Positions 2,121-58,881 of a stretch of DNA of 64,000 bases are shown here, piece after piece. The notes under the pieces were generated by a model. The model ran no database searches and was not told the DNA's origin. It was given only the letters and a program-made list of their open reading frames with translations. The stretch comes from a virus. Position 1 is the stretch's first letter; each line of letters opens with the position of its first letter. The position numbers were made by a program, and so were the translations under genes. Location of the stretch: the IMG/VR virus record IMGVR_UViG_3300045988_139610, one strand, 5' to 3'.

Positions 2121-2151
2121 TATTATCAAAACTGTTATTGAAATTACCTAT
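2121..2151 (-). promoter_or_regulatory. Bipartite element ATAGGTA-N16-TGATAATA (copy A)
   Basis: Reverse complement of 2121-2151. Exact 16-nt spacing as in the 6 other copies. Followed by an SD plus ATGTAA start-stop (2093-2098), then the Rha gene. Confidence 0.55.
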
Positions 2152-2195
2152 AATTTAAAATTTATATTTCATATTATCTCCTCCTTATAGTAATA

Positions 2196-2223
2196 ATTAT
2201 ATCATACCTATATTATTTGTCAA
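2196..2223 (-). promoter_or_regulatory. SigA-type promoter TTGACA-N16-TATAAT
   Basis: Reverse complement reads TTGACAaataatataggtatgaTATAAT. The 16-mer lies 5 nt upstream of the -35 box. Confidence 0.6.
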
Positions 2224-2236
2224 TACATTTTATTAA

Positions 2237-2776
2237 TTATTTTTGCATTAAATCTAAAATAGTACATATATCAATATCGTTATTATTTTTTCGTAATTTA
2301 TCACAATCTGGCTTATAGCAACAATTGTTACAACTGTCTATTACAAAATCTTGATACAATATGTTCAATATTCTATCTGCTTTATTAGCACACTGTGCTT
2401 TCATTCTTTTCATCATATTTTCTTCATTAATGCTAATACTAATTTCATTCCAGCTAATTACATGACTTATTTGACAATAATTATTAAAATCTGTTCCCTT
2501 CCAATAAGGCTGTACTGAATGTTCTGTACCATCTATAAGTTCTAATTCAATTTTCACTATATCATCAGACATAGACAATCTATTAAAAGGACTCAAGTCA
2601 TTTGTAAATGAATGATATTCAATATTGTCCATCTTCTCAATAACACATTCAAAATTATAATATTCATTATCTACTTTTGATATATTCAATTTTGTAAAAT
2701 TTTCAATCGGTATTTCAACATACTCACAATTTTCACAAACGAATGTTACCGATTTTATTTCTTTTATATTATTCAT
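2237..2776 (-). CDS. Hypothetical Cys-rich protein
   Basis: 179-aa ORF with SD GGAGGAG and its own promoter. The stop codon lies inside the 16-mer. Confidence 0.5.
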   Translation of the reverse strand: MNNIKEIKSVTFVCENCEYVEIPIENFTKLNISKVDNEYYNFECVIEKMDNIEYHSFTNDLSPFNRLSMSDDIVKIELELIDGTEHSVQPYWKGTDFNNYCQISHVISWNEISISINEENMMKRMKAQCANKADRILNILYQDFVIDSCNNCCYKPDCDKLRKNNNDIDICTILDLMQK

Positions 2777-2788
2777 AAAAACCCCTCC

Positions 2789-4048
2789 TTAATTATAACT
2801 AACTTCTTTACCTGATTCTCTAATACATTTAAAAACTGGAAACCTTAAAGATAATCCTCCTTTATCGTTATAGGTTTCTTCAAAGTATTGTATTTCAGCT
2901 ATACGATTTAAATATTCTTCTTGATTATTCCAAATTTGTTCTCTTTGTTTATCATCAAATCCACTACCTACACCAAGCTGATAACCTTTATAATCACATA
3001 TGAGATTACCTAATGTACCTTTATATTTACCGTCACCCTCTTCAAAACCTATGATTTTTAAATCACAAGAGTTCATTACTTTTAATTTTAATAATGTTTT
3101 ACTTCTTTTAAATTCATATGATTTGTCAAGATTAATCATACATCCTTCAGCACCATTTTGTCTACATTTATTTAAAATTTCTAAAACTTTATCGTTGTCA
3201 TTACCATGATATAAAATTGGAGTTACTTTTAAAAATTCAGTTTCTTTAATGTTCTCTAATACACTTCTTCTGATTGAATAAATATCAGTCTTTTTCTTAT
3301 TTTCAAATTCGTCTAATGTAATAATATCAAACACCATATACTTAACACCTGTTTTAACTTCACTTTTAGTAGATATTATTTTCATAGTGTCTTTATATAC
3401 ACTCTCATAATCACTATTTATTGCTAATAATTCACCGTCTAAACAAACATTATTTAAACCTGTTTGTTTTATTGATTTTAATACTTCAATCAATCCTGTT
3501 ATTTCCTTGTTTTGTCTACTCTTCATAGTTATTTTTCCATTTTTAATAATTGTAAAGCATCTTTGACCATCAAATTTCTCTGTTACAAATTTATCACCTT
3601 TAGGTAATTTATTTAAATCAGCTTTACTGCCAAGCATTATTTCAAATGTAAAAATCAATCCAGGTATAACTTTATTAACCGTCTTAGCATCAGCACCTAT
3701 TTTTAAACTCTTAGTAAGTAATCCTCTCACAAAATCCTGTAAATCTTCATCTAATGAATTTATATATCCTTGCACAACACCTATATTTACATCTGTTCCC
3801 GAGTTATGTAGACTTAAATAAATAAACATATCTCTTATATCATCGCAAGTATTTTCATATACTTTTACTTTTTTATTTATTTTCTTTTTACTTAATCCAG
3901 TTGTTATATTACTATCTAATAAAAATTTCAGACATTCTAAGAATAATTCATTATCCTTATTTTGTTTAATTATTGTTTCTTTACTTTTTTTACCACTTGT
4001 ATTTGAAATTTTATCAAATATTTCTTTTACCCTTTTTAATTCATTCAT
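2789..4048 (-). CDS. ATP-dependent DNA ligase
   Basis: Motif I KFDGQR (TEKFDGQRCF), EGCMI (motif IV-like) and LLKLK (motif V-like). 419 aa. SD AAGGAGG. Confidence 0.85.
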   Translation of the reverse strand: MNELKRVKEIFDKISNTSGKKSKETIIKQNKDNELFLECLKFLLDSNITTGLSKKKINKKVKVYENTCDDIRDMFIYLSLHNSGTDVNIGVVQGYINSLDEDLQDFVRGLLTKSLKIGADAKTVNKVIPGLIFTFEIMLGSKADLNKLPKGDKFVTEKFDGQRCFTIIKNGKITMKSRQNKEITGLIEVLKSIKQTGLNNVCLDGELLAINSDYESVYKDTMKIISTKSEVKTGVKYMVFDIITLDEFENKKKTDIYSIRRSVLENIKETEFLKVTPILYHGNDNDKVLEILNKCRQNGAEGCMINLDKSYEFKRSKTLLKLKVMNSCDLKIIGFEEGDGKYKGTLGNLICDYKGYQLGVGSGFDDKQREQIWNNQEEYLNRIAEIQYFEETYNDKGGLSLRFPVFKCIRESGKEVSYN

Positions 4049-4062
4049 ATATTAATTCCTCC

Positions 4063-4957: not shown

Positions 4958-5428
4958 TTAACACCACACCCTATGTTTCTCATGTATTTCTTCTAGCCCA
5001 TCATAATCACTTATCTCCCATTCAACATCTTCTGGTATTTCTACTATTTTTAATGAGGCACAACGACCACTAGCTTTTTTACTTCCCATTTCTTCAAACA
5101 ATTTTATTAAGTCTTTGTCATCTCTATCATATAATTCATCACTTAGAAATGTACAATTCATTAACTCCTCGGGATTTTTACCTTGATATTCATATGTAAC
5201 ATAAATCATGTTCCAACTAGGGTTTTGATTCTCTACAATTAAATCTCCATTTTCTTTAAATTTAAAATCTTGTATAAATTTAAAGGTATCATTGCAATCT
5301 TCGTCATACCCTCCACTATAGAAATATAATTTGTCGCATTCTCTATTTTTTATTTTACATAATTTTATTTTAAATTTATCTGATAGAGTATATCCTCCGA
5401 AACATCTATTTATTAATATTTTTCTCAT
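4958..5428 (-). CDS. Conserved phage hypothetical protein
   Basis: 156-aa ORF. The RCFGGY ... LKIVEIPEDVEWEISDYDG..EKHRVW pattern is recalled from other Firmicute phages, but no family name is assigned. Confidence 0.5.
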   Translation of the reverse strand: MRKILINRCFGGYTLSDKFKIKLCKIKNRECDKLYFYSGGYDEDCNDTFKFIQDFKFKENGDLIVENQNPSWNMIYVTYEYQGKNPEELMNCTFLSDELYDRDDKDLIKLFEEMGSKKASGRCASLKIVEIPEDVEWEISDYDGLEEIHEKHRVWC

Positions 5429-5981: not shown

Positions 5982-6046
5982 ATTATATTCCTCCTTTATT
6001 AATTTATACTTATATATTAACATAAACTAATTAAAAATAACCCTTA

Positions 6047-6690: not shown

Positions 6691-6975
6691 TTAATTTTCT
6701 TCTATATCTATGTCAGTTATTGTTTTAAATATGTCTTTATTGAAGTTAGGTAATGAAGTAAATGCATTTTTTTCTTTATCATTTATATAATTCCACATAT
6801 TTCTCCATGCCTCTTTATAATTTAATTCTTTTAAATAACCTCTAGCAATTTTATAATTGGGATGTTTTTCTTTTTCTTCATCTGTCATTTCATATTCATT
6901 AACCCATAGAGTTAATTTAAAATAGTTATTTATTATTTCAAATACACAACTTTTTTCCATGTGTCTAATGTCCAA
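6691..6975 (-). CDS. Downstream-frame part of the DUF7666-like/NTG-repeat protein
   Basis: Overlaps ORF 6933-7520 by 43 nt in the -1 frame. The junction is an A6 run (T-run 6951-6956 on the + strand). Confidence 0.45.
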   Translation of the reverse strand: MDIRHMEKSCVFEIINNYFKLTLWVNEYEMTDEEKEKHPNYKIARGYLKELNYKEAWRNMWNYINDKEKNAFTSLPNFNKDIFKTITDIDIEEN

Positions 6976-7520
6976 TCACTTTCTTTATTAAATAGTTTAA
7001 TCGTTTCATGTTTATCATTATCGTCAGTGCAAAAGCATCCTAATTTTTTATTGCCTAAATTACAGTCTCCAATGTTATAATTACCTTTATTATAATTACC
7101 ACTATTCCAATTTCCAGTATTCCAATCTCCAGTATTCCAATCTCCAGGATTATAATCTCCAGTATTATAATTTCCAGTATTATAACTACCTGTGTTTTTA
7201 ATACCTGTGTTACCTTCACCAGTATTAACCATATCTAATACTTCATGCCAGCTTAATTCTTTTATTATTTTTATTTCATTTGTTACACATTTATTATTTG
7301 AACAATCACTTTTTTCTATAATTTCACCAGTAGCTTCTATTATAGCTACTTTGTTTTCTGGGTCAAAAGTGTAATAATTAAAACAATCAACTAGCTTTTT
7401 ACAAAAATGAAATCCTGCTTCACATATATCTATTTTCCCTTCATGTCTATATGTTTCTCCTACCTTATATTGAAAACCTCTGCAAGTCCAATCTGAATTA
7501 AATACTTTATATCCTTTCAT
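6933..7520 (-). CDS. DUF7666-like N-domain plus pentapeptide-like (NTGxY/W) repeat protein, upstream frame
   Basis: KVFNSDWTCRGFQYKVGETY..CEAGFHFC, followed by about 10 NTG(D/N)(W/Y) 5-aa repeats. Confidence 0.55.
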   Translation of the reverse strand: MKGYKVFNSDWTCRGFQYKVGETYRHEGKIDICEAGFHFCKKLVDCFNYYTFDPENKVAIIEATGEIIEKSDCSNNKCVTNEIKIIKELSWHEVLDMVNTGEGNTGIKNTGSYNTGNYNTGDYNPGDWNTGDWNTGNWNSGNYNKGNYNIGDCNLGNKKLGCFCTDDNDKHETIKLFNKESDWTLDTWKKVVYLK

Positions 7521-7631: not shown

Positions 7632-7662
7632 TATTAACATTAGCGTCATAAAAATTACCTAT
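7632..7662 (-). promoter_or_regulatory. Bipartite element ATAGGTA-N16-TGTTAATA (copy B)
   Basis: Reverse complement reads CATAGGTAATTTTTATGACGCTAATGTTAATATAGTAATATAAGGAGG. Near-identical to copy E at 43284. Confidence 0.55.
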
Positions 7663-12875: not shown

Positions 12876-13451
12876 TTAATTATTTTTAATTTCTTTTATT
12901 ATATCTTTAATTAAATTGATTTTTCTATTAATTGTCACACTACTTACATTTAATTTTTTAGATATATTTTTTTGCTTGTATCCATCCATTAACATATCCA
13001 TAATTATATGTAATTCTTCTGCATTAATCTTATTAAATTTATTAATATTTCTTTTTTTTATTATACTATCAAATTCATTCATTAATTCTATATATTCGAT
13101 ATTTTGATATTCTAAATCTATTTTTCCTATAGTATCTAATAGAGTAGTCTGTTCTTTATCATCGTCAGATATATTAACATCCATAGATATAAGCATATCT
13201 TTGTCTCTATAATAAGTGTTTCTTAAATAGACATTGTATGAATTGTATATAATTGCACAAATAAATTTTTTAATATCCCCTTTAGACTCATCAAATTTAT
13301 TTCTAGATTCCCAAAGTTGTAGTAACGAATATTGAATCATATCTTCTTTAATTTTGAAAAATCCATTATAATTTTTATTATATATCTTACCAGCTAATTC
13401 TAAAGATAAATTTACATATTCTGTATCACTTATCATTGTTTTACTCATCAC
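12876..13451 (-). CDS. Small sigma-70-family (ECF/TcdR-size) sigma factor-like protein
   Basis: Region-2-like EDMIQYSLLQLWESRNKFD..FICAIIYNSYNVYLR and region-4 HTH ISKKLNVSSVTINRKINLIKDIIKE. Paralogue of 13529-14119. Confidence 0.6.
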   Translation of the reverse strand: MMSKTMISDTEYVNLSLELAGKIYNKNYNGFFKIKEDMIQYSLLQLWESRNKFDESKGDIKKFICAIIYNSYNVYLRNTYYRDKDMLISMDVNISDDDKEQTTLLDTIGKIDLEYQNIEYIELMNEFDSIIKKRNINKFNKINAEELHIIMDMLMDGYKQKNISKKLNVSSVTINRKINLIKDIIKEIKNN

Positions 13452-13528: not shown

Positions 13529-14119
13529 TTATTCATTATTTTTTATTTCTGTAATTATATCTTTTATTCTATTGACTTTCTTATTAACATTCGTACTGCT
13601 TACTCCTAACATTTTGCTGATTTCGCATTTATTATAGCCTTCATATAGTTTATTAATTATAAAATGTAACTCATCCAAATCTATTTTTCTACTTGTATGT
13701 TTATTTCTCTCTTCAACTATATTATTAAATTTATTTATAAACTCTTGTTTTTCAATATTTTTATAGTTGATATCTTCTTTAAGAAAATGACTAATTAATT
13801 TATTATATTCCTTTCTACAATCCAGTAATGTATCATTCATTGTATATATTCCTTCAGCAGAAATAACTTTACCTTTATTTTTATATACAAAGTCTCTCAC
13901 ATATTTTGTCATGCTCTTCCATGCAATAGCATTAAGATAAGTATTTAATGAAACATTTTTGCTTTCATCATATCTTTTTATGGCACTACACATTTGCATA
14001 TAAGCATATGATTGCATATCGTCTTTAAATAGAGAGAATGTTTTAAATCGTTTATTCCATATTCCCTTTGTTATTTTTATCATCAATCTTCCTTGTTCTT
14101 CTGAAATTTTTTCTTTCAT
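13529..14119 (-). CDS. Small sigma-70-family sigma factor-like protein (paralogue)
   Basis: DDMQSYAYMQMCSAIKRYD..YLNAIAWKSMTKYVRD and C-terminal HTH ISKMLGVSSTNVNKKVNRIKDIITE. Confidence 0.6.
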   Translation of the reverse strand: MKEKISEEQGRLMIKITKGIWNKRFKTFSLFKDDMQSYAYMQMCSAIKRYDESKNVSLNTYLNAIAWKSMTKYVRDFVYKNKGKVISAEGIYTMNDTLLDCRKEYNKLISHFLKEDINYKNIEKQEFINKFNNIVEERNKHTSRKIDLDELHFIINKLYEGYNKCEISKMLGVSSTNVNKKVNRIKDIITEIKNNE

Positions 14120-14209
14120 GTTTTCTTCCCCTTGTTTATCTTATACTATATATCATATGAACTTACTTGCCAAAAGTCAATACCTTTGACAAGATTTTAT
14201 TAATTATTT

Positions 14210-19090: not shown

Positions 19091-19196
19091 ATTATCATTC
19101 TCCTTTTTATTTATTATTTTTATTGATATTTCATTAACTTTATTAATTATTTTTTATCAACACTCAATTTACATCAACTCCTTTCTTATATTACTA

Positions 19197-19227
19197 TATT
19201 AACAATTAGTATTGAAAAATTACCTAT
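19197..19227 (-). promoter_or_regulatory. Bipartite element ATAGGTA-N16-TGTTAATA (copy C)
   Basis: Reverse complement reads TATAGGTAATTTTTCAATACTAATTGTTAATATAGTAATATAAG. Followed by an SD plus ATGTAA start-stop at 19169-19174. Confidence 0.55.
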
Positions 19228-22900: not shown

Positions 22901-23043
22901 AATATCATCTCCTTTATATTATAATTTAATAAAGAGGATAAGTAACGTTGTTTTTAATTGTGACACAACAAAACCTTATCCACTTTATTAATTGTTATTA
23001 TTGTATTAACATAACTTTAAGTAAAATTACTTATGAATTAAAA

Positions 23044-39743: not shown

Positions 39744-39774
39744 ATAGGTAATTTTTCATTATTAGTTGTTAATT
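39744..39774 (+). promoter_or_regulatory. Bipartite element ATAGGTA-N16-TGTTAATT (copy D1)
   Basis: Followed by a 9-codon micro-ORF, MVSKKLNKK*. Confidence 0.5.
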
Positions 39775-39867: not shown

Positions 39868-39898
39868 ATAGGTAATTTTTTATACAGTTATGTTAATA
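39868..39898 (+). promoter_or_regulatory. Bipartite element ATAGGTA-N16-TGTTAATA (copy D2)
   Basis: Lies 36 nt upstream of ATG 39934. Confidence 0.55.
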
Positions 39899-39933: not shown

Positions 39934-40164
39934 ATGTGGAGATATGCTGGTAAAAATAGTGCGACATTATCAGGAGCTGTGATAACTGCATTTGTATTAT
40001 TTAAAGCTTTAAAATATTCAGTTATAGTTGGTGAAGCATTTGGAGAGGTGGCTTTCATAATAACATTAACAGGAATTATGTTTCTCCCTATGATTACATT
40101 ACTACTAATGGTAGTAATTCACGATACTATAATTAAAAAGAGAAAAGATAAAAATCATAAGTAA
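39934..40164 (+). CDS. Small membrane protein (2 predicted TM helices)
   Basis: 76 aa. Hydrophobic stretches GAVITAFVLFKAL and VAFIITLTGIMFLPMITLLLMVVI. Confidence 0.55.
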   Translation: MWRYAGKNSATLSGAVITAFVLFKALKYSVIVGEAFGEVAFIITLTGIMFLPMITLLLMVVIHDTIIKKRKDKNHK

Positions 40165-40216
40165 TTTTTAAATAACTAATGTTAATATAATAATATAAGA
40201 AAGGAGGTGGTAGACC

Positions 40217-41800: not shown

Positions 41801-41832
41801 ATAAAAATAATTAATAAAAAGGAGGAGATAAT

Positions 41833-43283: not shown

Positions 43284-43314
43284 ATAGGTAATTTATATGA
43301 CGCTAATGTTAATA
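43284..43314 (+). promoter_or_regulatory. Bipartite element ATAGGTA-N16-TGTTAATA (copy E)
   Basis: CATAGGTAATTTATATGACGCTAATGTTAATATAGTAATATAAGGAGGTGG. Confidence 0.55.
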
Positions 43315-43871: not shown

Positions 43872-44648
43872 ATGAATATAAATTATAAATTATATCAAGG
43901 GGATTGTTTAGAAGTAATGGATGGATTAATTGAAGAAGGTATAAAATTTGATGCTATAATTGCAGACCCGCCTTATGGAACAACTGCATGTAAATGGGAT
44001 TCAGTTATACCATTTGATGCAATGTGGGAGAGATTGAATAAATTAATAAAAGATAATGGAGCAATAGTATTATTTGGTAGTCAACCTTTTACAAGTGAGT
44101 TAGTCCATAGTAACATTAATAACTATAAACACTATTGGATTTGGGATAAAGAAATATGTGGTGCTTTTGCATTGGCAAAGAAAAGACCAATGATTGTGAC
44201 AGAAGAAATATTAGTATTTTCAAAAAATAATAATAGAATTAATTATTATCCTATAATGGAAGATGCAATTTCTAAAAATATTAGACCTGTAAATTTAGGA
44301 AGTTCAGTTAGTGAAGCAACCCCTGTTTCAAGTGGAATTGCTAAAAGTGATAAAAACTATAATCCAAAAAAAAGATACCCTAAAAACATAATTAAATATT
44401 CAAAGTATAATAAAGAGTGTAACCAATTAAATAGAGTACACCCAACACAAAAACCTGTGGAGATATTAGAATATTTAATAAAAACATATACTAATGAAGG
44501 AGATTTAGTATTAGATTTTACAATGGGTAGTGGTTCAACTGGAGTTGCATGCTTAAATACAAATAGAAAATTTATTGGCATTGAATTGGATGAGAAATAC
44601 TTTAATATAGCTAAGGATAGAATAGAAGAATTAGATAAAAATAATTAA
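43872..44648 (+). CDS. DNA N6-adenine/N4-cytosine methyltransferase (beta class), no partner endonuclease seen
   Basis: DPPY (IIADPPYGT) precedes FTMGSGSTGVA (FxGxG). This fits the PF01555-type motif order. Confidence 0.8.
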   Translation: MNINYKLYQGDCLEVMDGLIEEGIKFDAIIADPPYGTTACKWDSVIPFDAMWERLNKLIKDNGAIVLFGSQPFTSELVHSNINNYKHYWIWDKEICGAFALAKKRPMIVTEEILVFSKNNNRINYYPIMEDAISKNIRPVNLGSSVSEATPVSSGIAKSDKNYNPKKRYPKNIIKYSKYNKECNQLNRVHPTQKPVEILEYLIKTYTNEGDLVLDFTMGSGSTGVACLNTNRKFIGIELDEKYFNIAKDRIEELDKNN

Positions 44649-44667
44649 TAAAATAGGGGTGGATAAA

Positions 44668-45849
44668 ATGTCAAGAGTATATTTCAATAGATTTTTTAGT
44701 AAAATAGATAAAAAGGGTATATATGATTATGCAAAATTAGATACAAATATAAATGATTTAGAAGAGAGAATACAATATGTATATGATTTATTAAATGTAG
44801 TGAAAGATGAAAATGGAACAGAATTTAGTAACGATGAATTTTGGAATGAAATATTCGTTCAACGTATTAATAAAACAAGTTATATTGATTTAATGCCTAA
44901 TTCAGAAACAGAATTATATTCTGAATCAAATATAGCAAAGACTTTAGAGGCTATAGCAAATTATATAATGTGGTGTGACCCTAATAAAAAAAAGAAAGAA
45001 CATATTAAAATATATGACAATGAAAAGAAGTTTCAAGATGCTATATCTAAAGATAGAAAATATTTTGATACATATGGAGAATCGGTAGATGATGGTGTTA
45101 TTATATTAAGGAGAAAAGAAAATTACAAGAAAGCTAAAGATGAAAAAGTTACAGCTGAAGATTTAAAAAATTATCCAGAGTTAAGAGAATATAAAAAAGA
45201 AATAGATAGATTGAGTTCTTACATAAGAGAAGATAGATTGGATGAGTTTATGGAGTACATGCAAAACAAAGGACACACTAAGATTAAAACGGAAAGACAG
45301 GCTAAATCATTTTTAGTAAATCACATAGGAGAACTTAAAAAAGACATGTTACAAGCAAAAATAGAATTAGCAAGACCTATTGTTTGGAAAGCTCCATTAA
45401 AAGATGCAGGAGAGGCTGATTGGGATGAACTTGATGAATTGGATTCTACTCATATGAAAGCTTTATTACAATTATATAGAGAATTAGAAGTATATGATTT
45501 TCAAAGCGATTTAGGATGTATATTTAAAGATTTAGAAGATGTACTCAGTGAGGTTAAACTGACTGAAAAACAAGAAGAATTATTAAATTTATGGATGAAA
45601 GGTATGACGGTTAGTAAAATAGCTAAAGAGTTAAATAAAAGCGTAGGTACAGTAAGTAAATATTTAGACAGAATAGTTAATAAAATAGTTGAGGTATATG
45701 AAGAAAAATTGGAAAATTGGTATTATTTAAATATAAGAAAAGGAGAATATAAACGTTGTAATAAATGTGGTGAAATTAAATTAATTAATAAATTTTATAA
45801 AGAATCAAATGGTGGATATAAAACTAAGTGTAAAAAATGTATGAATTAA
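44668..45849 (+). CDS. Sigma-region-4-like HTH protein with C-terminal zinc ribbon (possible late transcription factor)
   Basis: LTEKQEELLNLWMKGMTVSKIAKELNKSVGTVSKYLDRIVNKI resembles sigma-70 region 4 / LuxR HTH. C-terminal CNKCGE...CKKC. Confidence 0.5.
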   Translation: MSRVYFNRFFSKIDKKGIYDYAKLDTNINDLEERIQYVYDLLNVVKDENGTEFSNDEFWNEIFVQRINKTSYIDLMPNSETELYSESNIAKTLEAIANYIMWCDPNKKKKEHIKIYDNEKKFQDAISKDRKYFDTYGESVDDGVIILRRKENYKKAKDEKVTAEDLKNYPELREYKKEIDRLSSYIREDRLDEFMEYMQNKGHTKIKTERQAKSFLVNHIGELKKDMLQAKIELARPIVWKAPLKDAGEADWDELDELDSTHMKALLQLYRELEVYDFQSDLGCIFKDLEDVLSEVKLTEKQEELLNLWMKGMTVSKIAKELNKSVGTVSKYLDRIVNKIVEVYEEKLENWYYLNIRKGEYKRCNKCGEIKLINKFYKESNGGYKTKCKKCMN

Positions 45850-45995
45850 TATATAAAAAATACACTATTTTTATTATCGAAAAAATATGCTACTTTTTTC
45901 GTAGTATAAATAGCGTATTTTGTGTAAGGCTAAAAAAGCCTACAATATTTGTTATTTTTATTAATATTTTATAATTTATTAAGGGGGTATGTTTT

Positions 45996-48510: not shown

Positions 48511-49356
48511 ATGGCAGACACAAAACAATGTTCAGCTACAGGTAAATTTAAACCTACCGTTAGAGATTTCTACTCTACACAATCAATGCTTTATGAACAT
48601 GATAAGAAATTGCCTATGAGTAAAGAAGTGGTTGACAAGTATTTTAAAAAGTTATTAAAAAATTACAATAACGACCATAGGTTGGCTTTCATACATTTAT
48701 GTATGGTTTTAGATATGTATTATGACGAAGAAACGTATTTAAAGTGTGTTGAGAAATATGGTAATAATTTTTTAGGTAATTATACTAGAATAATTAATAG
48801 AGATAAAGCATTTAAAGGATTGACATCATTAGACAATATGCTTACTTATGATGGTGTAACCAATATTATTACTGGAGAAACAGTTACTTCAAGTGAAATT
48901 GTTGACTTTTGGGGTAAGGGATTTCAAGATGACGAATATGAGCTACTTCAAAGAAAATATGAACAATACACAGATAATTACCCATCTAAAACTACCCAAG
49001 AAGTTAATCTTATCAAAACCATATGTATGTTAGAAGTGCTTAGGGAAAGAGCCGTAGTTAAGAATGACCCAAAGGCATTTGAAAATTTAACTAATCAAAT
49101 TTCCAAACGTATGGAAGAACTTAATATATTACCTTCTAAAATGAGTAAATATGGCGAAGACGATAATTTAAGTTATGGGAATTTAATAGCAATAATAGAG
49201 AAAAATGAACCTATCCCAGATGTTCATTCAGAATATAATGATGTTGATAGAATTAAATGGTGGCTAAATCGTTATTTCTTAAATCCTATCAAGAAATTAA
49301 TGAATAATGATTCAACTCCTTATACAGAGGAGGACGAGCGTGGATATGGAGAATAA
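48511..49356 (+). CDS. Putative terminase small subunit
   Basis: Called by position only. It lies immediately upstream of TerL and overlaps it (ATGGAGAATAA). Start is ATG 48511. Confidence 0.4.
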   Translation: MADTKQCSATGKFKPTVRDFYSTQSMLYEHDKKLPMSKEVVDKYFKKLLKNYNNDHRLAFIHLCMVLDMYYDEETYLKCVEKYGNNFLGNYTRIINRDKAFKGLTSLDNMLTYDGVTNIITGETVTSSEIVDFWGKGFQDDEYELLQRKYEQYTDNYPSKTTQEVNLIKTICMLEVLRERAVVKNDPKAFENLTNQISKRMEELNILPSKMSKYGEDDNLSYGNLIAIIEKNEPIPDVHSEYNDVDRIKWWLNRYFLNPIKKLMNNDSTPYTEEDERGYGE

Positions 49357-49819
49357 ATTAAAATGTAAACAAAGAAAAAACTTAAAAAAGGATTCATATG
49401 AAAATTTATTAGATGGTGTAAAAATATGGACTGAATATTTTAGAAAGAATCCACATAGATTTTGTATGGATTTTTTAGGAATTAATCTATATTGGTTTCA
49501 ACAAGTATTGCTTTATATGATGAATATATGCACTAATTTCTGCTTCACAGCATCAAGAGGTCTTGGAAAGACATTCTTAACGGCTATATTTGTATGTTGT
49601 AGAGCAATATTATATCCAGGTTCTAAAATAATAGTTGCATCTGGTAATAAAGACCAAGCAGGATTAATTATAACCGAGAAAATTGAAGATTTACAAAGGA
49701 ATTATCCCGCATTGGCAAAAGAGATTAAAAAAATTCAAAACAATAAAGATAATGTTAAATGTATATTTAAAAATGGTTCTGTAATAACTGCAATAGCATC
49801 TAATGATGGAGCTAGAGGT
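49346..49819 (+). CDS. terL: Terminase large subunit, exon 1 (ATPase Walker A)
   Basis: ASRGLGKT Walker A. The frame stops at TAA directly after ..NDGARG. Continuation is at 51074. Confidence 0.75.
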
Positions 49820-51073
49820 TAAAAATTTATTTTAAAGTCAAATTTTTACAAGGAATTTAAAGGAGTGTAAGCCTTTGTTCCTTCTCTTAAATAAATAAGA
49901 GAGAAGGTGTTTATAATGTCAAGATGGACTGATGAAGAAGAAAAGAAATTAGAAGAAATACATGACAAATATACAGTTAAGGAAATTGCAAAAATACTAA
50001 ATAAAAGTGAAGCGTCTATTGATTGTAAGAAAAGAAGAATGGGATTGACTGTAAATATAAATTCTAAAGATAGGGGAGACCAATACTTTTTTGACAGTAT
50101 AGATACTGAAGAAAAAGCATATTGGCTAGGGTTTATATATGCCGACGGTTACATAATCTCTTCTGATAGAAATTATGAATTAGGTATCGAATTAAATTAT
50201 AAAGATGTAGAACATTTGGAAAAGTTTAATAAAATATTCAATAACTATTATAAAATATCTGAGAAAATAGGAGCTTATAACTCAATAGAAAGATTTAATG
50301 GAAAAGAAGAGACAAATAGAAAGTCTGAAACTTGCTTAATAAGAGTATATAGCAAAACTATTTATGAAGGCTTAGCTAAAAATGGCATAGTCCAAAATAA
50401 GACATATTCAACTATTTTTCCTAAAATAGAAGATAAAGTTTTATTTCTTCATTTTTTGAGAGGGTATATTGATGGTGACGGGTCTTATTGCATTAAAAAA
50501 GTTAAAGGACATAAATATCCTAGAATATCAATACAGGCAAAGAATAAATTAGCACTTCAATACATAGTTGATAAATTAAATGAAGATTTTGGCATAAAAG
50601 CTTACATACACAAAGATAGAGAATGTTTTAAATTTGAAATAAGTAGAAAACATGATTGTTTAAAATTAATGGATTTAATGTATGATAATGCCACTGTATA
50701 TTTAGATAGAAAATTTGACAAAGTTAATGAAATAAAAAGTATAGCCTAGTATTATGCAAATTCTCAAGTGCATAATACCGTAAACGGGATGTATCGGTCT
50801 AGCTGAAAGTACGTAAAAATTATAACCTTACTAAGTTAAGGAGGAATAAGCTGAGAAGAAAGGCTAAGTCCTAAAGGATAGTGCTGATACCGAGGGTAAT
50901 AATATCTAATATTACCTGTAACGAATAGGAGATGAGCGTTAAGATGAAAGTAATAATTCTCCCACGAGCTTCCGTCACTCATTGAGAATTAATTATGAGA
51001 GTGAAAATTTATTCTGAGCTTGCAGGAAACTGTAAGAACTATAAGATAAAAAGCTTATAGGATAACAAAACTG
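49820..51073 (+). mobile_element. Group-I-like intron in terL carrying a LAGLIDADG homing endonuclease
   Basis: Exon 1 ends in U (ggT). The element ends in G at 51073. Splicing gives ..NDGARG|QRCNILVADEYRLIK in frame (Walker B-like LVADE). The flanks 49820-49906 and 50750-51073 are non-coding and richer in G+C. Confidence 0.7.
49916..50749 (+). CDS. Double-motif LAGLIDADG homing endonuclease
   Basis: LGFIYADGYI and LRGYIDGDGSY. N-terminal Myb/HTH-like WTDEEEKKL..IAKILNKS. Confidence 0.8.
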   Translation: MSRWTDEEEKKLEEIHDKYTVKEIAKILNKSEASIDCKKRRMGLTVNINSKDRGDQYFFDSIDTEEKAYWLGFIYADGYIISSDRNYELGIELNYKDVEHLEKFNKIFNNYYKISEKIGAYNSIERFNGKEETNRKSETCLIRVYSKTIYEGLAKNGIVQNKTYSTIFPKIEDKVLFLHFLRGYIDGDGSYCIKKVKGHKYPRISIQAKNKLALQYIVDKLNEDFGIKAYIHKDRECFKFEISRKHDCLKLMDLMYDNATVYLDRKFDKVNEIKSIA

Positions 51074-52348
51074 CAAAGATGCAATATATTAGTTGCAGAC
51101 GAGTATCGTCTTATAAAATTAGATGTAATTAATTCGGTTTTAAAGCAATTCTTAACTAATCCAAGAAAACCACCATTCTTAGAAAAAGAAGAATATAAAG
51201 ATTATCCTCTTGAAAGCAACATGGAACTATATTTAAGTTCGAGTTGGCTGAAATCACATTGGAGTTATGAGAAATTCACCGGAATATTAACTAGAATGCT
51301 TGAAGGTGGTAAGGCATTTGCTTGTGCTATTCCTTATTTAGCTTCTTTAGACCACAAACTTGTACTGAAAGATAAAATTGAAGAAGACAAAGAGGATATG
51401 GGTGAATTCGTATTTAATATGGAATATGGTTGTATATGGCATGGACAAAGTGGAGATTGCTTCTTTAATACATCTGATATGTTAAATGCTAGAGTTTTAA
51501 AGAATTGTTATTATCCATTAACGGATGACGATTATAGAAATCCAGATAAAAAGAAAAAGGAATTAAAACAAATGCCTAAAAAGAAAGATGAAATAAGGAT
51601 AATTTCAGTCGACGTAGCTACAGCAAAAGCTAACAAATCAAATAAAAATGATAACTCTATTTTTACTTTATGGAGATTACTTCCTAGTGGAAATAATATT
51701 ATTAGAGAAGTTGTTTATATGGAATCACATAATGGTATGAAGTTTGAAAAACAAGCCACTAGAATTAAGAGATTATATACAGAGTTTAAAGCAGACAAAA
51801 TTATCATAGACGGTGGTGGTTTAGGTATAGCTGTAATACAAGAAATGGAAAAATCATCTTATGACGAAAATATTGATGAACATTACGAACCTTTTGGCAT
51901 TTATGATATGAGTACGCAATCAAAAGATTTTCAACCTTTAAAAAATGGTATAAATTGTATATATGTAATTAAAGGGAATCAAAAAATAAATAATGATTGT
52001 GCAGTATATCTTAAAAATGCTTTTAGTAGTAAAAAAATAAGATTATTAATAGAAGAAAATGAAAAAAGAGGAGATTTTAGTAAAGACTTAAAATATCATC
52101 AAGACGCAGAATATCATGCTAATAAAATAGCACCATTTATTCAAACATCTAATTTTATATTTGAATCAATAAACTTAGATTATGAAACTATGGGGAATGG
52201 TGATATAGTTCTTAAAGAAAAAGGAAGAAATCGTAAGGATAGATATTCTTCTATTACTTATGGTAATTATTTAGCAGAATTGATAGAAAGAGATATAAGA
52301 AAGAAAAATAGGAATAAGAAAAAGAGACATATTTTCTTGGCTAATTAA
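51074..52348 (+). CDS. terL: Terminase large subunit, exon 2 (Walker B plus nuclease domain)
   Basis: Open frame from 51050. LVADEY, then IISVDVA..IIIDGGGLG typical of a TerL nuclease. Confidence 0.7.
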   Translation, partial: QRCNILVADEYRLIKLDVINSVLKQFLTNPRKPPFLEKEEYKDYPLESNMELYLSSSWLKSHWSYEKFTGILTRMLEGGKAFACAIPYLASLDHKLVLKDKIEEDKEDMGEFVFNMEYGCIWHGQSGDCFFNTSDMLNARVLKNCYYPLTDDDYRNPDKKKKELKQMPKKKDEIRIISVDVATAKANKSNKNDNSIFTLWRLLPSGNNIIREVVYMESHNGMKFEKQATRIKRLYTEFKADKIIIDGGGLGIAVIQEMEKSSYDENIDEHYEPFGIYDMSTQSKDFQPLKNGINCIYVIKGNQKINNDCAVYLKNAFSSKKIRLLIEENEKRGDFSKDLKYHQDAEYHANKIAPFIQTSNFIFESINLDYETMGNGDIVLKEKGRNRKDRYSSITYGNYLAELIERDIRKKNRNKKKRHIFLAN

Positions 52349-57191: not shown

Positions 57192-57211
57192 TAAAACAGG
57201 AGGTAAAATTT

Positions 57212-57718
57212 ATGTATCAAATATTAACTTATGTAGAAGATAATTTTGCTAAATCAGCAATATGCTCTACTGAATTAAAAAATGGTGAAGTAGTATTAGT
57301 AAAAGGACTAGCTGATTCAACTCTAGCTAAAATAGATAATATAGGAGTTGAAGGTGAATGTTATGAAGTGACAGACTTAGAAGATGACGCTAATAAAATA
57401 TTAGCTATGGTAGCATCTGACGGTCATAGATATGAAAAAGAAACATCTTATAATTTTGGTGATTATGCAAACACACCAGCTGGAGAAGCAGTGAGAATTT
57501 ATTTCTTACACAAAGGTATGGTTGTTGATATAGAAAAAATACTTATAGATGGAACTGTTGCTAAAGGAGACCAATTAACTGTTAAAGCTGGTTCACATAA
57601 TCTTAAAAAATACACTGCTCCAACTGGTGATGAAGCAGATGCTAAAAGAATAGTAGGTGAAGTTATAGGTACTTCAAATTTAATGGGTAAAGATATGGTG
57701 CAAATATTATTCTATTAA
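57212..57718 (+). CDS. Putative head decoration / DUF2190-like protein
   Basis: 168 aa, immediately upstream of the capsid gene. Gly/Val-rich beta pattern. Confidence 0.4.
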   Translation: MYQILTYVEDNFAKSAICSTELKNGEVVLVKGLADSTLAKIDNIGVEGECYEVTDLEDDANKILAMVASDGHRYEKETSYNFGDYANTPAGEAVRIYFLHKGMVVDIEKILIDGTVAKGDQLTVKAGSHNLKKYTAPTGDEADAKRIVGEVIGTSNLMGKDMVQILFY

Positions 57719-57752
57719 GAATAAAATAATTAATAAAATGGAGGTTAAAAGA

Positions 57753-58597
57753 ATGATAGATAACGATGTTAGACAAATGGTAATAGACTTACATAACGGT
57801 GTGTGTTCTTATTCAAGAAAAGAAGCTTCAGATGTTATAAGAAATATGATATTTGAAAAAGTAGAACCACTTCCAGAAAAGAAATCTAATTATAGAAGAT
57901 GGTTGAAAAGAAATGGTAATACAGTATTTGAATTATTAGAAGAATTAATAACTGTAACTCATAACGAAATAACTGTTGAATCTTTTGGAGATTTAGTAGA
58001 TGTTGAAACTTTCGATATAGGAGATAAAAAAGAATTCTTAATTCAAAATGACGAATTGTTTAAAGTTGGTTTAATGGCTACTGGTGTTAAAACAGTTCAT
58101 AGACAAAGAATCTATGATAAAAAGGTAGATACTAAAGCTTTCAGATTAGGCGTTAAAATCTATGCTGAAATGTTTGATTTCTTAAAAGGAAATATAGACT
58201 GGACTTTATTTGTAGATAGAGTATCTAAATCTTTTGATAAAAAAGTATGTACTTTAGTTACAAAAACTATATTTGGAGCTTATGATGCTTCTGGAAATCC
58301 AAATTTATGTAAAGCATCTAATGACAATGCTTTATCAACTACTTTAAAAGAAATGATAGCTAAAGTTGCAGATTCTACAGGTCAAGAAGTTCAAATACTA
58401 GGAACTAAAACAGCATTAGCTCATGTAAAATCAGATGCGACTTTTGTATCAGATGCTGAAAAAGACGATAGAAGAAATTATGGATATACTCAAGTATTTG
58501 AAGGTACTCCTTTAGTTCCATTACCAAATTATTATGATAAAACTACTGGTGCTTTTGAAGTTGATGACGATATGTTATTAATAATTCCGGTTAACGT
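57753..58597 (+). CDS. Major capsid protein, exon 1 (3' boundary +/-10 nt)
   Basis: ATG 57753 behind GGAGGT. The frame ends ..LLIIPVNV(E*) at 58602. The C-terminal continuation is found at about 59786. Confidence 0.6.
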
Positions 58598-58850
58598 AGA
58601 ATAAATACTACAACAGCCCGTATATCGAGCAATCGGTATAGGACACAACTTGAATTGCAGGTAATGGGTAAAGCTCTACACCAAAGCGGATAGTGAAAAC
58701 TAAGACGTAACGGTACGAAAGTAGAAAAAACGTAGAGATGGTGCATGGTTAAATCCTAAACACTAGATGATTAAATTCATTACAATCCCTGTTCATGCAG
58801 GTAAGCGTCCCTGTTTTAATATTAATTATTTTGTTTAAAAGGTTAAAATA

Positions 58851-58881
58851 ATAGGTAATTTTATCAATAGTTATGTTAATA
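58851..58881 (+). promoter_or_regulatory. Bipartite element ATAGGTA-N16-TGTTAATA (copy F) inside the capsid intron
   Basis: AATAGGTAATTTTATCAATAGTTATGTTAATACAATAATATGAAGGAGGTGG lies directly upstream of the intron ORF. Confidence 0.55.

What the first reader, a model, noticed from the sequence alone, without database searches (positions are those of the whole stretch)
2121..58881. Seven copies of a fixed-geometry bipartite element ATAGGTA-N16-TG(T/A)TAAT(A/T): a candidate dedicated promoter/operator class
Seen in sequence: copies lie at 2121-2151(-), 7632-7662(-), 19197-19227(-), 39744-39774(+), 39868-39898(+), 43284-43314(+) and 58851-58881(+). All have exactly 16 nt between the two boxes, and all are sense to the downstream gene. 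Most are followed by (G/A)TAATAT(A/G)AAGGAGG. Copies B and E are nearly identical over ~50 nt, although they sit on opposite arms in front of unrelated genes.

The downstream box matches an extended -10 (TGnTAATAT). The upstream box is unlike TTGACA. Isolated ATAGGTA heptamers are also frequent in the origin region (34.8-35.1 kb). One copy lies inside the capsid-gene intron and drives its endonuclease ORF.

Inference: this is either a promoter class read by one of the three sigma-like proteins encoded in this window, or an extended -10 SigA promoter with a conserved operator at -35.
Basis: partly seen in the sequence, partly recalled or inferred. Interest (0 to 1): 0.7.

Follow-up and report, generated by a model that had tools for sequence, protein, structure and literature searches.

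The report
Phage sigma-factor promoter class in gut phage
The repeated two-box element is real and is most likely the middle-gene promoter class of an uncultured human-gut phage-plasmid, read by a small sigma factor that the phage itself encodes; this is a familiar kind of phage regulation in a family where it had not been described.

Summary
All seven ATAGGTA-N16-TG(T/A)TAAT(A/T) copies lie at the stated coordinates and strands, where 0 are expected by chance. Relaxed searches add two one-mismatch copies and one variant.

The full element is about 55 nt: tcATAGGTAATTTtt-N10-TGTTAATA-N3-TAATAT-AAGGAGG.

It is specific to one family of roughly 133-141 kb human-gut phage contigs:
- Each contig carries about 8-16 or more copies.
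- 142 of 156 upstream boxes have the downstream box at exactly the same distance.
- The element is absent from phiCD211, a distant relative, and from 185,579 bacterial species genomes apart from chance hits and two mis-binned phage fragments.

It is separate from the phage's many canonical TTGACA-N17-TATAAT early promoters. It drives replication and nucleotide-metabolism genes, antirepressors and homing endonucleases, and never structural genes.

Its -10-like box is a poor sigma-A -10, because the would-be -7 base is T in only 39% of copies.

The best reader candidate is the ECF-like sigma at 12876-13451(-), which is itself expressed from a sigma-A-type promoter. Relatives that carry a paralog with a diverged DNA-recognition helix have the upstream box swapped to AAAGGTGAyTT at orthologous genes, while TGTTAATA is kept.

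No transcription start site or sigma dependence has been measured. I rate this a new member of a known kind, of moderate interest.

The parts
2121..2151 (-). Class IIa promoter copy (its -10 box is TGATAATA). It is followed by a ribosome-binding site and an ATG-TAA start-stop, then the Rha-family gene 1198-2034. Predicted TSS about 2113.
7632..7662 (-). Class IIa promoter copy, preceded by a hairpin plus T-run. It drives a short YopX-like remnant ORF and the DUF7666/pentapeptide gene 6933-7520. It is near-identical to the 43284 copy. Predicted TSS about 7624.
19197..19227 (-). Class IIa promoter copy directly after a terminator-like hairpin plus T-run. A start-stop mini-ORF follows, then the Rha/ANT antirepressor gene 18350-19090. 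Predicted TSS about 19189.
23004..23034 (-). One-mismatch class IIa copy (ATAAGTAATTT-N12-TGTTAATA) upstream of gene 21697-22872 (phrog_2467).
39744..39774 (+). Class IIa copy with a weaker -10 box (TGTTAATT) and no TAATAT/SD tail. It lies in tandem 124 nt upstream of the next copy.
39868..39898 (+). Class IIa copy upstream of the small membrane-protein ORF 39934-40164. It is the first promoter of the right (+) arm.
40157..40187 (+). One-mismatch class IIa copy (ATAAGTAATTT) upstream of the small ORF 40217-40435.
43284..43314 (+). Class IIa copy that heads the unit containing small ORFs, the DNA methylase 43872-44648 and the 396-aa sigma-like gene 44659-45849. Predicted TSS about 43322.
58851..58881 (+). 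Class IIa copy inside the ~1.19 kb insertion that splits a capsid-region structural gene. It drives the HNH homing-endonuclease ORF 58906-59619.
6015..6045 (-). Variant copy AAGGGTTATTT-N12-TGTTAATA-tataagtataa, conserved at the same site in relatives L129, L131 and L132. The likely true start of the downstream ORF is the ATG after the SD at about 5981.
12876..13451 (-). Sigma1, a 191-aa ECF-like sigma factor and the proposed reader of ATAGGTAATTT/TGTTAATA.
13529..14119 (-). Sigma2, a 196-aa paralog of sigma1 (37% identity). Its alleles vary among relatives. Its promoter target is unknown.
14152..14180 (-). Sigma-A-type promoter TTGACT-N17-TATGAT in front of the sigma2-sigma1 gene pair. It gives these genes early expression by host RNA polymerase.
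44659..45849 (+). 396-aa sigma-like protein (phrog_5767) immediately upstream of the packaging and structural genes. It is a candidate late-gene factor that itself lies downstream of the 43284 promoter.

Best explanation
The element is the middle (delayed-early) promoter class of a roughly 135-kb phage-plasmid from the human gut. It is read by host core RNA polymerase carrying a phage-encoded ECF-like sigma factor, most likely sigma1 (12876-13451, minus strand).

Proposed sequence of events:
1. Host sigma-A transcribes the left-arm early genes from the many TTGACA-N17-TATAAT promoters. These include TTGACT-N17-TATGAT at 14180-14152(-), in front of the sigma2-sigma1 gene pair.
2. The sigma-4 helix-turn-helix of the new sigma binds ATAGGTAATTT, the -35 equivalent. 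Its sigma-2 domain binds and melts TGTTAATA, the -10 equivalent.
3. Transcription starts about 7 nt downstream, inside the conserved TAATAT. The leader is therefore very short and begins just before a consensus AAGGAGG ribosome-binding site.
4. This class switches on replication and nucleotide-metabolism genes, antirepressors, free-standing and intron-borne homing endonucleases, and the unit at 43284 that contains the 396-aa sigma-like protein. That protein would then activate the late structural genes.

Shown: the existence, geometry, distribution, gene associations and family specificity of the motif; the sigma fold of sigma1; and the association between upstream-box type and sigma paralog content.

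Inferred: that the element is a promoter, where the TSS lies, which sigma reads it, and the temporal order.
For: 1. Non-random, fixed geometry. There are 7 exact copies against 0 expected. In about 800 kb of relatives, 142 of 156 unique ATAGGTAATTT have TGnTAAT at exactly +23, and 138 of 238 TGTTAATA have ATARGTA at -23.

2. Footprint. Positions left free in the search pattern are 92-99% conserved, while the 10-nt spacer core is close to random. A relative whose sigma1 is only 63% identical keeps both boxes at the orthologous site although the spacer has changed.

3. Promoter placement. All copies are sense to the next gene. Of 191 family instances, 178 have an ORF with a ribosome-binding site within 400 nt. 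Several copies directly follow hairpin plus T-run terminators.

4. A separate class from sigma-A promoters. The left arm holds many consensus TTGACA-N17-TATAAT promoters. The right arm has essentially no such promoters on the + strand. The class II -10 box has T at the -7 position in only 39% of copies. It is established knowledge of sigma70-family -10 recognition that A-11 and T-7 are the key bases.

5. Specificity to the family. The exact scan of 596 Gb of bacterial genomes gave 17 hits. Two are mis-binned fragments of this phage. Of the other 15 single hits, the three I inspected are chance matches without the TAATAT/SD tail. phiCD211 has no copy with 2 or fewer mismatches.

6. Sigma1 is a sigma factor.
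   - It passes the TIGR02937 cut-off (43.5 bits against 42.9).
   - It matches the PHROG sigma families.
   - The AF2 model shows two helical domains, and its top PDB fold matches are all sigma factors.
   - Its homologs occur only in this family: 66 clusters, all 63% identical or more, on 133-141 kb contigs.
   - All 11 large motif-bearing IMG/VR contigs encode it.

7. Covariation between sigma and upstream box.
   - The variant upstream box AAAGGTGAnTT, with the same TGTTAATA, occurs among family contigs only in 123101, 135797 and the partial contig 108657 (exhaustive scan).
   - The paralog sigma3 occurs in IMG/VR only in 123101 and 135797, and in the Logan contig L132, which has the variant box and no ATAGGTAATTT in 20 kb.
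   - Ten of the eleven family genomes without the variant box were confirmed to carry sigma1. All eleven have 8-16 IIa copies and no IIb.
   - 14 of 15 IIb-driven ORFs have homologs that are IIa-driven elsewhere in the family.
   - Sigma1 and sigma3 are 47% identical in the sigma-2 domain but only 26% identical in the helix-turn-helix. This fits a shared -10 box and a changed -35 box.

8. Sigma1 versus sigma2. The recognition helix of sigma1 (VSSVTINRKINLIK) is nearly invariant across orthologs that are 63-100% identical. Sigma2 alleles differ without any change in the motif.

9. Gene content. Downstream genes include Pol III alpha, a DnaB-like helicase, NrdD, AAA_24, Rha/ANT antirepressors, HNH endonucleases and TnpB. 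No structural gene is among them.
Against: - There are no transcription data, so neither the TSS nor dependence on any factor has been measured.
- The sigma-box covariation may amount to a single lineage event. Another lineage-specific DNA-binding protein could explain it equally well.
- The mapping is not one-to-one. Contig 135797 has sigma3 but no sigma1 in the parts held, yet it keeps 6 IIa copies. Contig 123101 has a frameshifted sigma1 and still has 3 IIa copies.
- The Pfam hits of sigma1 are near or below threshold. The fold-search E-values are only about 5e-3 with low TM-scores, because the two domains are oriented freely in the model.
- TG-n-TAATAT-like sequences could still give basal sigma-A activity in the roughly 39% of copies with T at -7.
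Confidence: 0.68

Rival explanations
1. Host sigma-A reads TGTTAATA as an extended -10 promoter. ATAGGTAATTT is then the binding site of a separate phage (or host) activator or repressor that replaces the -35 contact. This would resemble T4 MotA/AsiA sigma appropriation or a class II activator.
For: - A TG lies two bases upstream of a TAATAY hexamer, which is the extended -10 geometry.
- The 11-13 bp conserved upstream box is long for a -35 element.
- The leader and ribosome-binding-site design downstream of the -10 box is the same as at the phage's sigma-A promoters.
- The sigma-box covariation could reflect another factor specific to that lineage.
- ATAGGTA heptamers also cluster in the origin region, as sites for a DNA-binding protein might.
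Against: - The -7 position is T in only 39% of copies, and all eight bases of TGTTAATA are nearly invariant. This is unlike sigma-A -10 elements.
- The phage's genuine sigma-A promoters have consensus hexamers.
- The change in upstream box coincides with the replacement of a sigma paralog whose helix-turn-helix is its most diverged part.
- The origin heptamers lack the ATTT extension.
Confidence: 0.17
2. The element is read by the 396-aa sigma-like protein (44659-45849) or by sigma2 (13529-14119) rather than by sigma1.
For: - All three proteins have sigma-like region 4.
- The helix-turn-helix of sigma2 is 56% identical to that of sigma1.
- Contig 135797 keeps IIa copies without a detectable sigma1 but has a sigma2-type gene.
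Against: - The 396-aa protein has full-length homologs in phiCD211-like phages, and phiCD211, the one genome scanned, lacks the motif entirely.
- The 396-aa gene lies downstream of a class II promoter and directly upstream of the structural genes, which is the usual position of a late-gene regulator.
- Sigma2 alleles have different recognition helices in genomes that share the same unchanged IIa motif.
- The sigma-2 domain of sigma2 is only 28% identical to that of sigma1.
Confidence: 0.1
3. The element is not a promoter. It is the conserved end of a mobile gene cassette, such as a recombination, homing or insertion site carried with homing endonucleases and moron genes.
For: - Many copies precede homing endonucleases, TnpB and accessory genes.
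- The 7632 and 43284 copies are near-identical, spacer included, in front of unrelated genes.
- The genomes are mosaic.
Against: - The element also precedes core replication genes such as Pol III alpha, DnaB and NrdD.
- The two boxes are conserved while the spacer varies freely, which is the signature of a promoter rather than of a recombination site.
- It always lies at a fixed distance upstream of a ribosome-binding site, in the sense orientation.
Confidence: 0.04

Closest known systems
Bacillus phage SPO1 middle and late promoters read by phage sigma factors gp28 and gp33/gp34
   Same: In both, small phage-encoded sigma factors are made from host sigma-A early promoters. They redirect host core polymerase to a bipartite promoter class with its own -35 and -10 boxes at fixed spacing. 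The middle class drives replication genes, and a further factor controls the late genes (the SPO1 paradigm is my own knowledge; PMC13401047, listed, restates it).
   Different: No sequence relationship to gp28 or gp34 was shown. The boxes differ: from memory, SPO1 middle promoters use AGGAGA and TTTNTTT. Here the sigma has an ECF-like two-domain architecture. The factor comes in paralogs and alleles with an apparently swapped -35 specificity among co-circulating relatives. The host is an unknown gut Firmicute.
ECF (group 4) sigma factors and their promoters
   Same: Sigma1 has the sigma-2 plus sigma-4 architecture without region 3. It passes TIGR02937, its best fold matches are ECF sigmas, and the two-box promoter has about 15-16 bp between the box cores.
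   Different: The usual ECF hallmarks (AAC in the -35 box, CGT in the -10 box; my own knowledge) are absent. No anti-sigma partner was identified. The sigma is encoded by a phage and serves a lytic programme rather than envelope stress.
Phage T4 middle promoters (MotA box plus sigma-70 -10 element, with AsiA)
   Same: In both, a phage-specific box replaces the -35 hexamer upstream of an AT-rich -10 element, and the class drives middle-gene and homing-endonuclease expression.
   Different: T4 keeps host sigma-70 and a good TAnnnT -10 element. Here -7 is mostly not T, and a phage sigma is available. Homologs of MotA and AsiA were not searched for.
Extended -10 (TGnTATAAT) sigma-A promoters of Firmicutes
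   Same: There is a TG dinucleotide one base upstream of a TAATAY hexamer, and no TTGACA.
   Different: The T between TG and the hexamer is 96% conserved, and the final A of the box (position 31, four bases further on) is 92% conserved. The hexamer's last base is C in 53% of copies. An obligatory conserved 11-13 bp upstream box is present.
phiCD211 / phiCDIF1296T-like 'big plasmidial' siphophages of Clostridioides difficile
   Same: The genomes are of similar size. The portal proteins are 30-32% identical and the 396-aa sigma-like proteins 33-35% identical. Both have partition and replication-initiator genes, which suggests a phage-plasmid lifestyle.
   Different: phiCD211 has neither the ATAGGTA element nor the AATAATTAATAA 12-mer. 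The small sigma found no match in the whole phage collection, phiCD211 included.

Membership tests
Sigma-70 family, ECF-like sigma factor (for ORF 12876-13451) | Sigma-2 domain (region 2) detectable by family profiles | tested here: met
   TIGR02937 scores 43.5 bits against a cut-off of 42.9 and spans profile positions 25-163 of 165. Pfam Sigma70_r2 scores 21.6 bits, below its cut-off of 24. PHROG sigma families score 4e-13 and 6e-10. The feature is met only marginally.
Sigma-70 family, ECF-like sigma factor (for ORF 12876-13451) | C-terminal sigma-4 helix-turn-helix domain and overall two-domain sigma fold | tested here: met
   PF07638 Sigma70_ECF scores 21.9 bits against a cut-off of 21.1. 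The AF2 model (pLDDT 74) has helical domains at residues 9-80 and 104-190. Its top Foldseek PDB hits are sigma factors, the best mostly with probability 0.9-1.0 and E about 5e-3.
Sigma-70 family, ECF-like sigma factor (for ORF 12876-13451) | Binds core RNA polymerase and confers promoter-specific initiation | not testable with these tools
   This needs in vitro transcription or a reporter assay.
Alternative-sigma-dependent promoter class | Two conserved boxes at fixed spacing, upstream of and sense to genes | tested here: met
Alternative-sigma-dependent promoter class | Promoter boxes covary with the sigma factor's DNA-recognition domains | tested here: inconclusive
   The IIb upstream box occurs only in genomes that carry sigma3, and orthologous genes have swapped boxes. 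However, this may be a single lineage event, and IIa copies persist in sigma3 genomes that lack an intact sigma1.
Alternative-sigma-dependent promoter class | Transcription start 5-10 nt downstream of the -10 box, dependent on the sigma | not testable with these tools
   No transcriptome or 5'-end data are available.
Sigma-A (housekeeping) extended -10 promoter | TG at -15/-14 | tested here: met
   If the hexamer is TAATAY, TG lies in the correct register in every copy, but the search pattern required it.
Sigma-A (housekeeping) extended -10 promoter | -10 hexamer with conserved A at -11 and T at -7 | tested here: not met
   In the only register that puts A at -11, the -7 base is C in 53%, T in 39% and A in 8% of 133 unique instances. 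The other registers lack either A-11 or T-7.
Sigma-A (housekeeping) extended -10 promoter | The class also occurs in host chromosomes | tested here: not met
   An exact scan of the genomes of 185,579 species found only scattered single hits plus mis-binned fragments of this phage. An exact-match scan is a weak test for a degenerate host consensus.
T4-type sigma appropriation (MotA/AsiA) | Presence of MotA-like activator and AsiA-like co-activator genes | not tested
   No targeted search was made. Only about half of the genome lies in the window.

The most novel reading that the evidence does not exclude
Co-circulating members of one gut phage-plasmid family may carry interchangeable sigma alleles (sigma1, sigma3 and several sigma2 types) together with matching sets of rewritten -35 boxes. 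These would be naturally evolved orthogonal sigma/promoter pairs. The compact promoter-plus-RBS cassette, about 55 nt long, may spread along with homing endonucleases and accessory genes. Switching the sigma/promoter code could insulate a phage's middle programme from related co-resident phage-plasmids, giving a form of transcriptional incompatibility or immunity. It would also offer ready-made orthogonal expression parts for low-GC Firmicutes.
Probability: 0.25. Interest if true: 0.65.

Novelty: new member of a known kind. Interest (0 to 1): 0.45.

Why it matters
- It gives a concrete and testable transcription programme for an abundant but uncultured family of roughly 135-kb human-gut phage-plasmids. 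The proposed order is: host sigma-A early promoters, then a phage ECF-like sigma with ATAGGTAATTT/TGTTAATA middle promoters, then a 396-aa sigma-like late factor.
- The natural box swap, ATAGGTAATTT to AAAGGTGAyTT alongside a changed sigma-4 helix, is a compact system for studying how sigma-4 and -35 specificity co-evolve.
- The swap could also supply orthogonal sigma/promoter pairs for AT-rich Firmicutes.
- The motif can be used as a marker to annotate operon starts and temporal classes in metagenomic relatives.

Tried and rejected
- Rfam at gathering threshold on the whole window, and at E<=1 on 48.2-60.2 kb, gave no intron, riboswitch or other RNA family. The 'intron' label for the 58.6-59.8 kb insertion is therefore unconfirmed.
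- ARAGORN found no tRNA genes.
- A PDB sequence search with both small sigmas returned nothing useful. Only the fold search was informative.
- tblastn of sigma1 against 50,697 GenBank phage records found no match.
- The motif is absent from phiCD211.
- A full-text literature search for ATAGGTAATTT returned only unrelated primers and probes. Searches on phage sigma factors, clostridia and phage-plasmids found no description of this family or motif.
- I tried to retrieve the TcdR-family promoter consensus from PMC4885068. The first attempt was rejected for term syntax and the second found nothing. From memory, the group 5 sigma -35 box is TTTACA-like, which does not resemble this box. NCBIfam gave no TcdR/UviA-type hit for any of the three proteins.
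- I compared the boxes, from memory, with the host sigma-H, sigma-E/F/G/K and sigma-D consensus sequences. Sigma-H (RnAGGAwWW-N11-12-RnnGAAT) is superficially similar in its -35 box, but its spacing is 2-4 nt shorter and its -10 box differs, so I rejected it.
- I looked for a second class that pairs ATAGGTA with a different -10 box. The 16 non-IIa heptamers are mostly in coding sequence or in the origin region, and none shares a downstream box.
- I considered TAATAT (positions 35-40) as the true -10 box. I rejected this because the TSS would then fall inside or after the Shine-Dalgarno sequence.
- A de novo k-mer search for a late-promoter motif on the right arm found nothing convincing.

Full report
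**1. The observation**

None of 100 dinucleotide-preserving shuffles gave a single match.

Allowing up to three mismatches to ATAGGTAATTT-N12-TGTTAATA adds three sites:
- 23004-23034(-) and 40157-40187(+), both with ATAAGTA in place of ATAGGTA.
- 6015-6045(-), a more divergent AAGGGTTATTT version.

All sites point toward the next ORF.

Some details of the finding need correction:
- The near-identical pair is 7632(-) and 43284(+), with 1 difference in 47 nt including the spacer. These are the 2nd and 6th copies, not 'B and E'.
- The TAATAT-AAGGAGG tail is present in 4-5 of the 7 copies.
- Isolated ATAGGTA heptamers are only weakly enriched overall (23 against 15.2 expected). Four do cluster at 34821-35077 and are largely conserved in relatives, but they lack the ATTT extension and any -10 box.

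**2. What the window is**

The window has 25% G+C and two divergent transcription arms. These meet at a 2.4-kb non-coding region containing three DnaA boxes (TGTGGATAAC at 35185, 35352 and 35374) and other repeats.

| Region | Genes identified |
|---|---|
| Left arm | Two small sigma-like proteins, a ParM-like partition protein, an ScpB-like protein, a DNA ligase, several Rha/ANT antirepressors |
| Between the arms | FtsK-like protein, replication initiator |
| Right arm | Methylase, 396-aa sigma-like protein, exonuclease, a split large terminase, portal, protease, structural genes |

The portal protein is 30-32% identical to those of the phiCD211-like 'big plasmidial' siphophages of C. difficile. 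There is almost no nucleotide similarity to any GenBank phage.

An identical sigma protein lies on a 133.6-kb contig from a human-gut metagenome (ERR321291, PRJEB4336). The element is therefore an uncultured gut phage-plasmid of about 135 kb.

**3. The motif across relatives**

Nearly all came from a dozen contigs of 126-140 kb that are 90-98% identical to parts of the window.

In about 800 kb of these relatives plus the window:
- 142 of 156 unique ATAGGTAATTT have TGnTAAT at exactly the same offset. Most of the remainder are one-base variants.
- 138 of 238 unique TGTTAATA have ATARGTA at -23. The others show no resemblance.

A position table from 133 unique instances gives the full element: A(-3) n T C ATAGGTAATTT T T, then about 10 nearly random positions, then TGTTAATA, then Y A n, then TAATAT, then AAGGAGG. 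Positions that the search pattern did not force are 92-99% conserved.

A relative whose sigma1 ortholog is only 63% identical keeps both boxes at the orthologous site, although half of the spacer has changed. This is the footprint expected of a two-box protein-binding site under selection.

**4. It behaves as a promoter, and as a class of its own**

Every copy lies upstream of a gene and in the sense orientation. Of 191 family instances, 178 have an ORF with a ribosome-binding site within 400 nt. Several window copies directly follow hairpin plus T-run terminators, so they start new transcription units.

The same genome contains many textbook sigma-A promoters (TTGACA-N17-TATAAT) on the left arm. 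The + strand of the right arm has none of comparable quality. There, the ATAGGTA copies at 39744, 39868, 40157 and 43284 are the only recognisable promoters ahead of the methylase, sigma-like and packaging genes.

Both classes place TAAGGAGG about 7-8 nt after the -10 box. TGTTAATA therefore occupies the -10 position, and the predicted TSS falls in the conserved TAATAT (about 38 nt from the first A of ATAGGTA).

TGTTAATA is a poor sigma-A -10 element. In the only register that places A at -11, the -7 base is C in 53%, T in 39% and A in 8% of copies. All eight bases, including the one between TG and the hexamer, are nearly invariant. The box in the -35 position (…AGGTAAT…) bears no resemblance to TTGACA.

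**5. Which genes it drives**

In the window the downstream genes are:
- two Rha/ANT antirepressors;
- a DUF7666-pentapeptide protein;
- small membrane proteins;
- the unit containing the methylase and the 396-aa sigma-like gene;
- an HNH homing endonuclease.

Across the family the 42 downstream protein clusters include Pol III alpha, a DnaB-like helicase, anaerobic ribonucleotide reductase NrdD, an AAA_24 ATPase, antirepressors, HNH and treble-clef endonucleases, TnpB and YopX. None is a structural gene. This is a middle, replication-type regulon plus selfish and accessory genes.

The 58851 copy lies in a ~1.19-kb insertion that splits a structural gene. The phiCD211 homolog aligns to 57819-58589 and resumes at 59778-59939.

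**6. Who reads it**

*Not a host promoter class.* The element is not a chromosomal promoter class of any sequenced bacterium. An exact scan of 596 Gb from 185,579 species gave 17 hits. Two are 3-kb fragments of this phage binned into a gut MAG. Of the other 15 single hits, the three I inspected are chance matches without the TAATAT/SD tail.

*Sigma1 is a credible sigma factor.*
- ORF 12876-13451(-), here called sigma1, passes the TIGR02937 sigma70-ECF cut-off.
- It matches the PHROG sigma families.
- It folds as two helical domains whose best PDB matches are all sigma factors, mostly ECF sigmas.
- Its paralog sigma2 (13529-14119, 37% identity) lies just upstream. The gene pair is preceded by a sigma-A-type promoter, TTGACT-N17-TATGAT, at 14180-14152(-), so both would be made early.

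*Sigma1 is confined to the family that has the motif.*
- In 5.8 billion proteins there are 66 homolog clusters, all at least 63% identical, on 133-141 kb contigs.
- No homolog is detectable in GenBank phages.
- All 11 large motif-bearing IMG/VR contigs encode it.

*The 396-aa protein is an unlikely reader.* It has 33-35% identical full-length homologs in phiCD211-like phages. phiCD211, the one such genome scanned, has no copy of the motif with 2 or fewer mismatches.

**7. A natural specificity swap**

A subclass has the upstream box AAAGGTGA(T/C)TT with the same TGTTAATA. An exhaustive IMG/VR scan found it, within the family, only in contigs 123101 (6 copies), 135797 (3) and the partial contig 108657 (5). 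All other hits were single matches in unrelated contigs, lying in ordinary sequence without the TAATAT/SD tail.

A third sigma paralog, sigma3 (P0067), is 46% identical to sigma1 and sits at sigma1's position. It occurs in IMG/VR only in 123101 and 135797. It also occurs on a Logan contig (L132) whose 20 kb contain an AAAGGTGAC copy upstream of a Rha gene, the AAGGGTTATTT site, and no ATAGGTAATTT.

| Genomes | Sigma content | IIa copies (lower bounds) | IIb copies |
|---|---|---|---|
| Eleven family genomes (ten confirmed with sigma1) | no sigma3 | 8-16 each | 0 |
| 123101 | sigma1 frameshifted, sigma3 intact | 3 | 6 |
| 135797 | sigma3, no sigma1 in the parts held | 6 | 3 |
| 108657 (partial contig) | unknown | 0 in 29 kb | 5 |

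Of 15 ORFs behind the variant box, 14 have homologs (40-100% identity; one pairing is the same ORF behind tandem IIb and IIa boxes) that sit behind ATAGGTAATTT elsewhere in the family. Alignments of orthologous promoters show the upstream box exchanged while TGTTAATA and the leader are retained.

Sigma1 and sigma3 are 47% identical in the sigma-2 domain but only 26% identical in the helix-turn-helix. This is the pattern expected if sigma-2 reads the shared -10 box and sigma-4 reads the changed -35 box.

Across sigma1 orthologs the recognition helix VSSVTINRKINLIK is nearly invariant. Sigma2 alleles have different helices in genomes whose motif is the same.

This makes sigma1 the best candidate reader of the element in this window.

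**8. Caveats**

- Nothing here measures transcription.
- The covariation may amount to one lineage event, although the genome backgrounds are mosaic. Another lineage-specific factor cannot be excluded.
- The mapping is not clean. Contig 135797 lacks sigma1 in the regions held but keeps six ATAGGTAATTT copies. In 123101 sigma1 looks frameshifted, yet three copies remain. Possible reasons are that sigma3 or sigma2 tolerates both boxes, that these copies are relics, or that the assemblies are incomplete.
- IIa counts are lower bounds from a truncated, motif-anchored sample.
- Basal sigma-A recognition of the TG-n-TAATAT subset remains possible.

**9. Comparison with known systems, and verdict**

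In mechanism this matches the phage SPO1 paradigm. A phage sigma made from host-type early promoters redirects core polymerase to a private two-box promoter class for middle genes, and a further sigma-like factor sits ahead of the late genes. The sigma itself has the ECF (group 4) architecture, but the boxes lack the usual ECF hallmarks.

The element fails one defining test for a sigma-A extended -10 promoter, namely T at -7. The T4 MotA/AsiA model is the main rival and has not been excluded.

I found no literature describing this motif or this phage family.

I classify the finding as a new member of a known kind. The apparent sigma-4 / -35 co-variation among natural relatives adds to that interest.

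Noticed in passing
window, 55 sites (e.g. 12873-12884-, 33606-33617-, 41806-41817+, 63823-63834+): The 12-mer AATAATTAATAA occurs 55 times against 0.76 expected, and 54 of the 55 copies are on the transcribed-sense strand of their arm. It sits in short intergenic gaps. About 21 copies lie 1-20 nt before a ribosome-binding site and start codon, about 14 lie 4-6 nt before a TTGACA -35 box, and 13 overlap the preceding stop codon. The distant relative L132 has 21 copies in 20 kb, and phiCD211 has none. From memory, this strand-specific 'gene-start punctuation' recalls mycobacteriophage stoperators or start-associated sequences, or it could be a UP element. Its function is unknown.
   Followed up: partly
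window 2090-2100(-) and 19160-19175(-); many relatives' loci: Roughly a quarter to a third of class II promoters are followed by a strong ribosome-binding site and then a minimal start-stop ORF (ATG-TAA or ATG-TAG). The real gene, often an antirepressor, begins 70-140 nt further on. This may be a translational or mRNA-stability control device.
   Followed up: partly
window 30106-30120, 30683-30697, 30975-30989, 32294-32308 and similar sites at 29-33 kb: Palindromes of the form CTATC-N5-GATAG occur 4 times against 0.04 expected. The related repeat AATGATAGTAAAA occurs 11 times. Both overlap or abut sigma-A-type early promoters at the inner end of the left arm, and they look like repressor operators.
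   Followed up: partly
window 33600-36000: The non-coding region looks like a replication origin. It has three DnaA boxes (CTTGTGGATAACT at 35183, 35350 and 35372), three or four copies of GTTGATATTACTAG (also seen upstream of antirepressor genes), and four ATAGGTA(T/A)A heptamers at 34821-35077 that are largely conserved in relatives. The GC-skew switch falls here.
   Followed up: partly
window 49307-52348: The large terminase gene is split. The N-terminal ATPase part is 49307-49822 and the C-terminal part is 51221-52348. An endonuclease ORF (49907-50749, phrog_4645) lies between them and has no class II promoter. Rfam detects no intron.
   Followed up: partly
window 45890-45995; phiCD211 (L126) about 5160-5260: The segment downstream of the 396-aa sigma-like gene is conserved: TTTTTTC(C/G)TAGTAT…T(G/A)TGTAAGG, followed by a hairpin (GTAAGGCT-AAAAA-AGCCTAC). 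A similar TATGTAAGG plus hairpin follows the homologous gene in phiCD211. It is a candidate late promoter or regulatory site for the structural operon.
   Followed up: partly
loci L156-L169, L129, L132 (orthologs of window 13529-14119): The sigma2 paralog exists in at least two very different allelic types among otherwise 90-98% identical genomes. Their recognition helices are GVSSTNVNKKVNRI and DCSQNTVKKKIHRM, and overall identity ranges from 39 to 96%. In contig 123101 sigma1 appears frameshifted next to an intact sigma3. The sigma locus seems to be a recombination hot spot.
   Followed up: partly
window 59636-59681: A 46-nt stretch inside the insertion in the structural gene is 95.7% identical to an unannotated stretch in Staphylococcus phages of about 135-139 kb (qdsa001, DELF3 and others). 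It may be a shared intron core or a remnant of a homing site.
   Followed up: no
window 2205-2237(-): A consensus sigma-A promoter (TTGACA-aataatATAGGTAtga-TATAAT, which has an ATAGGTA inside its spacer) drives a 5-codon ORF (MKYKF) and lies immediately upstream of the class II copy at 2121-2151. These tandem promoters of two classes precede the Rha gene.
   Followed up: no
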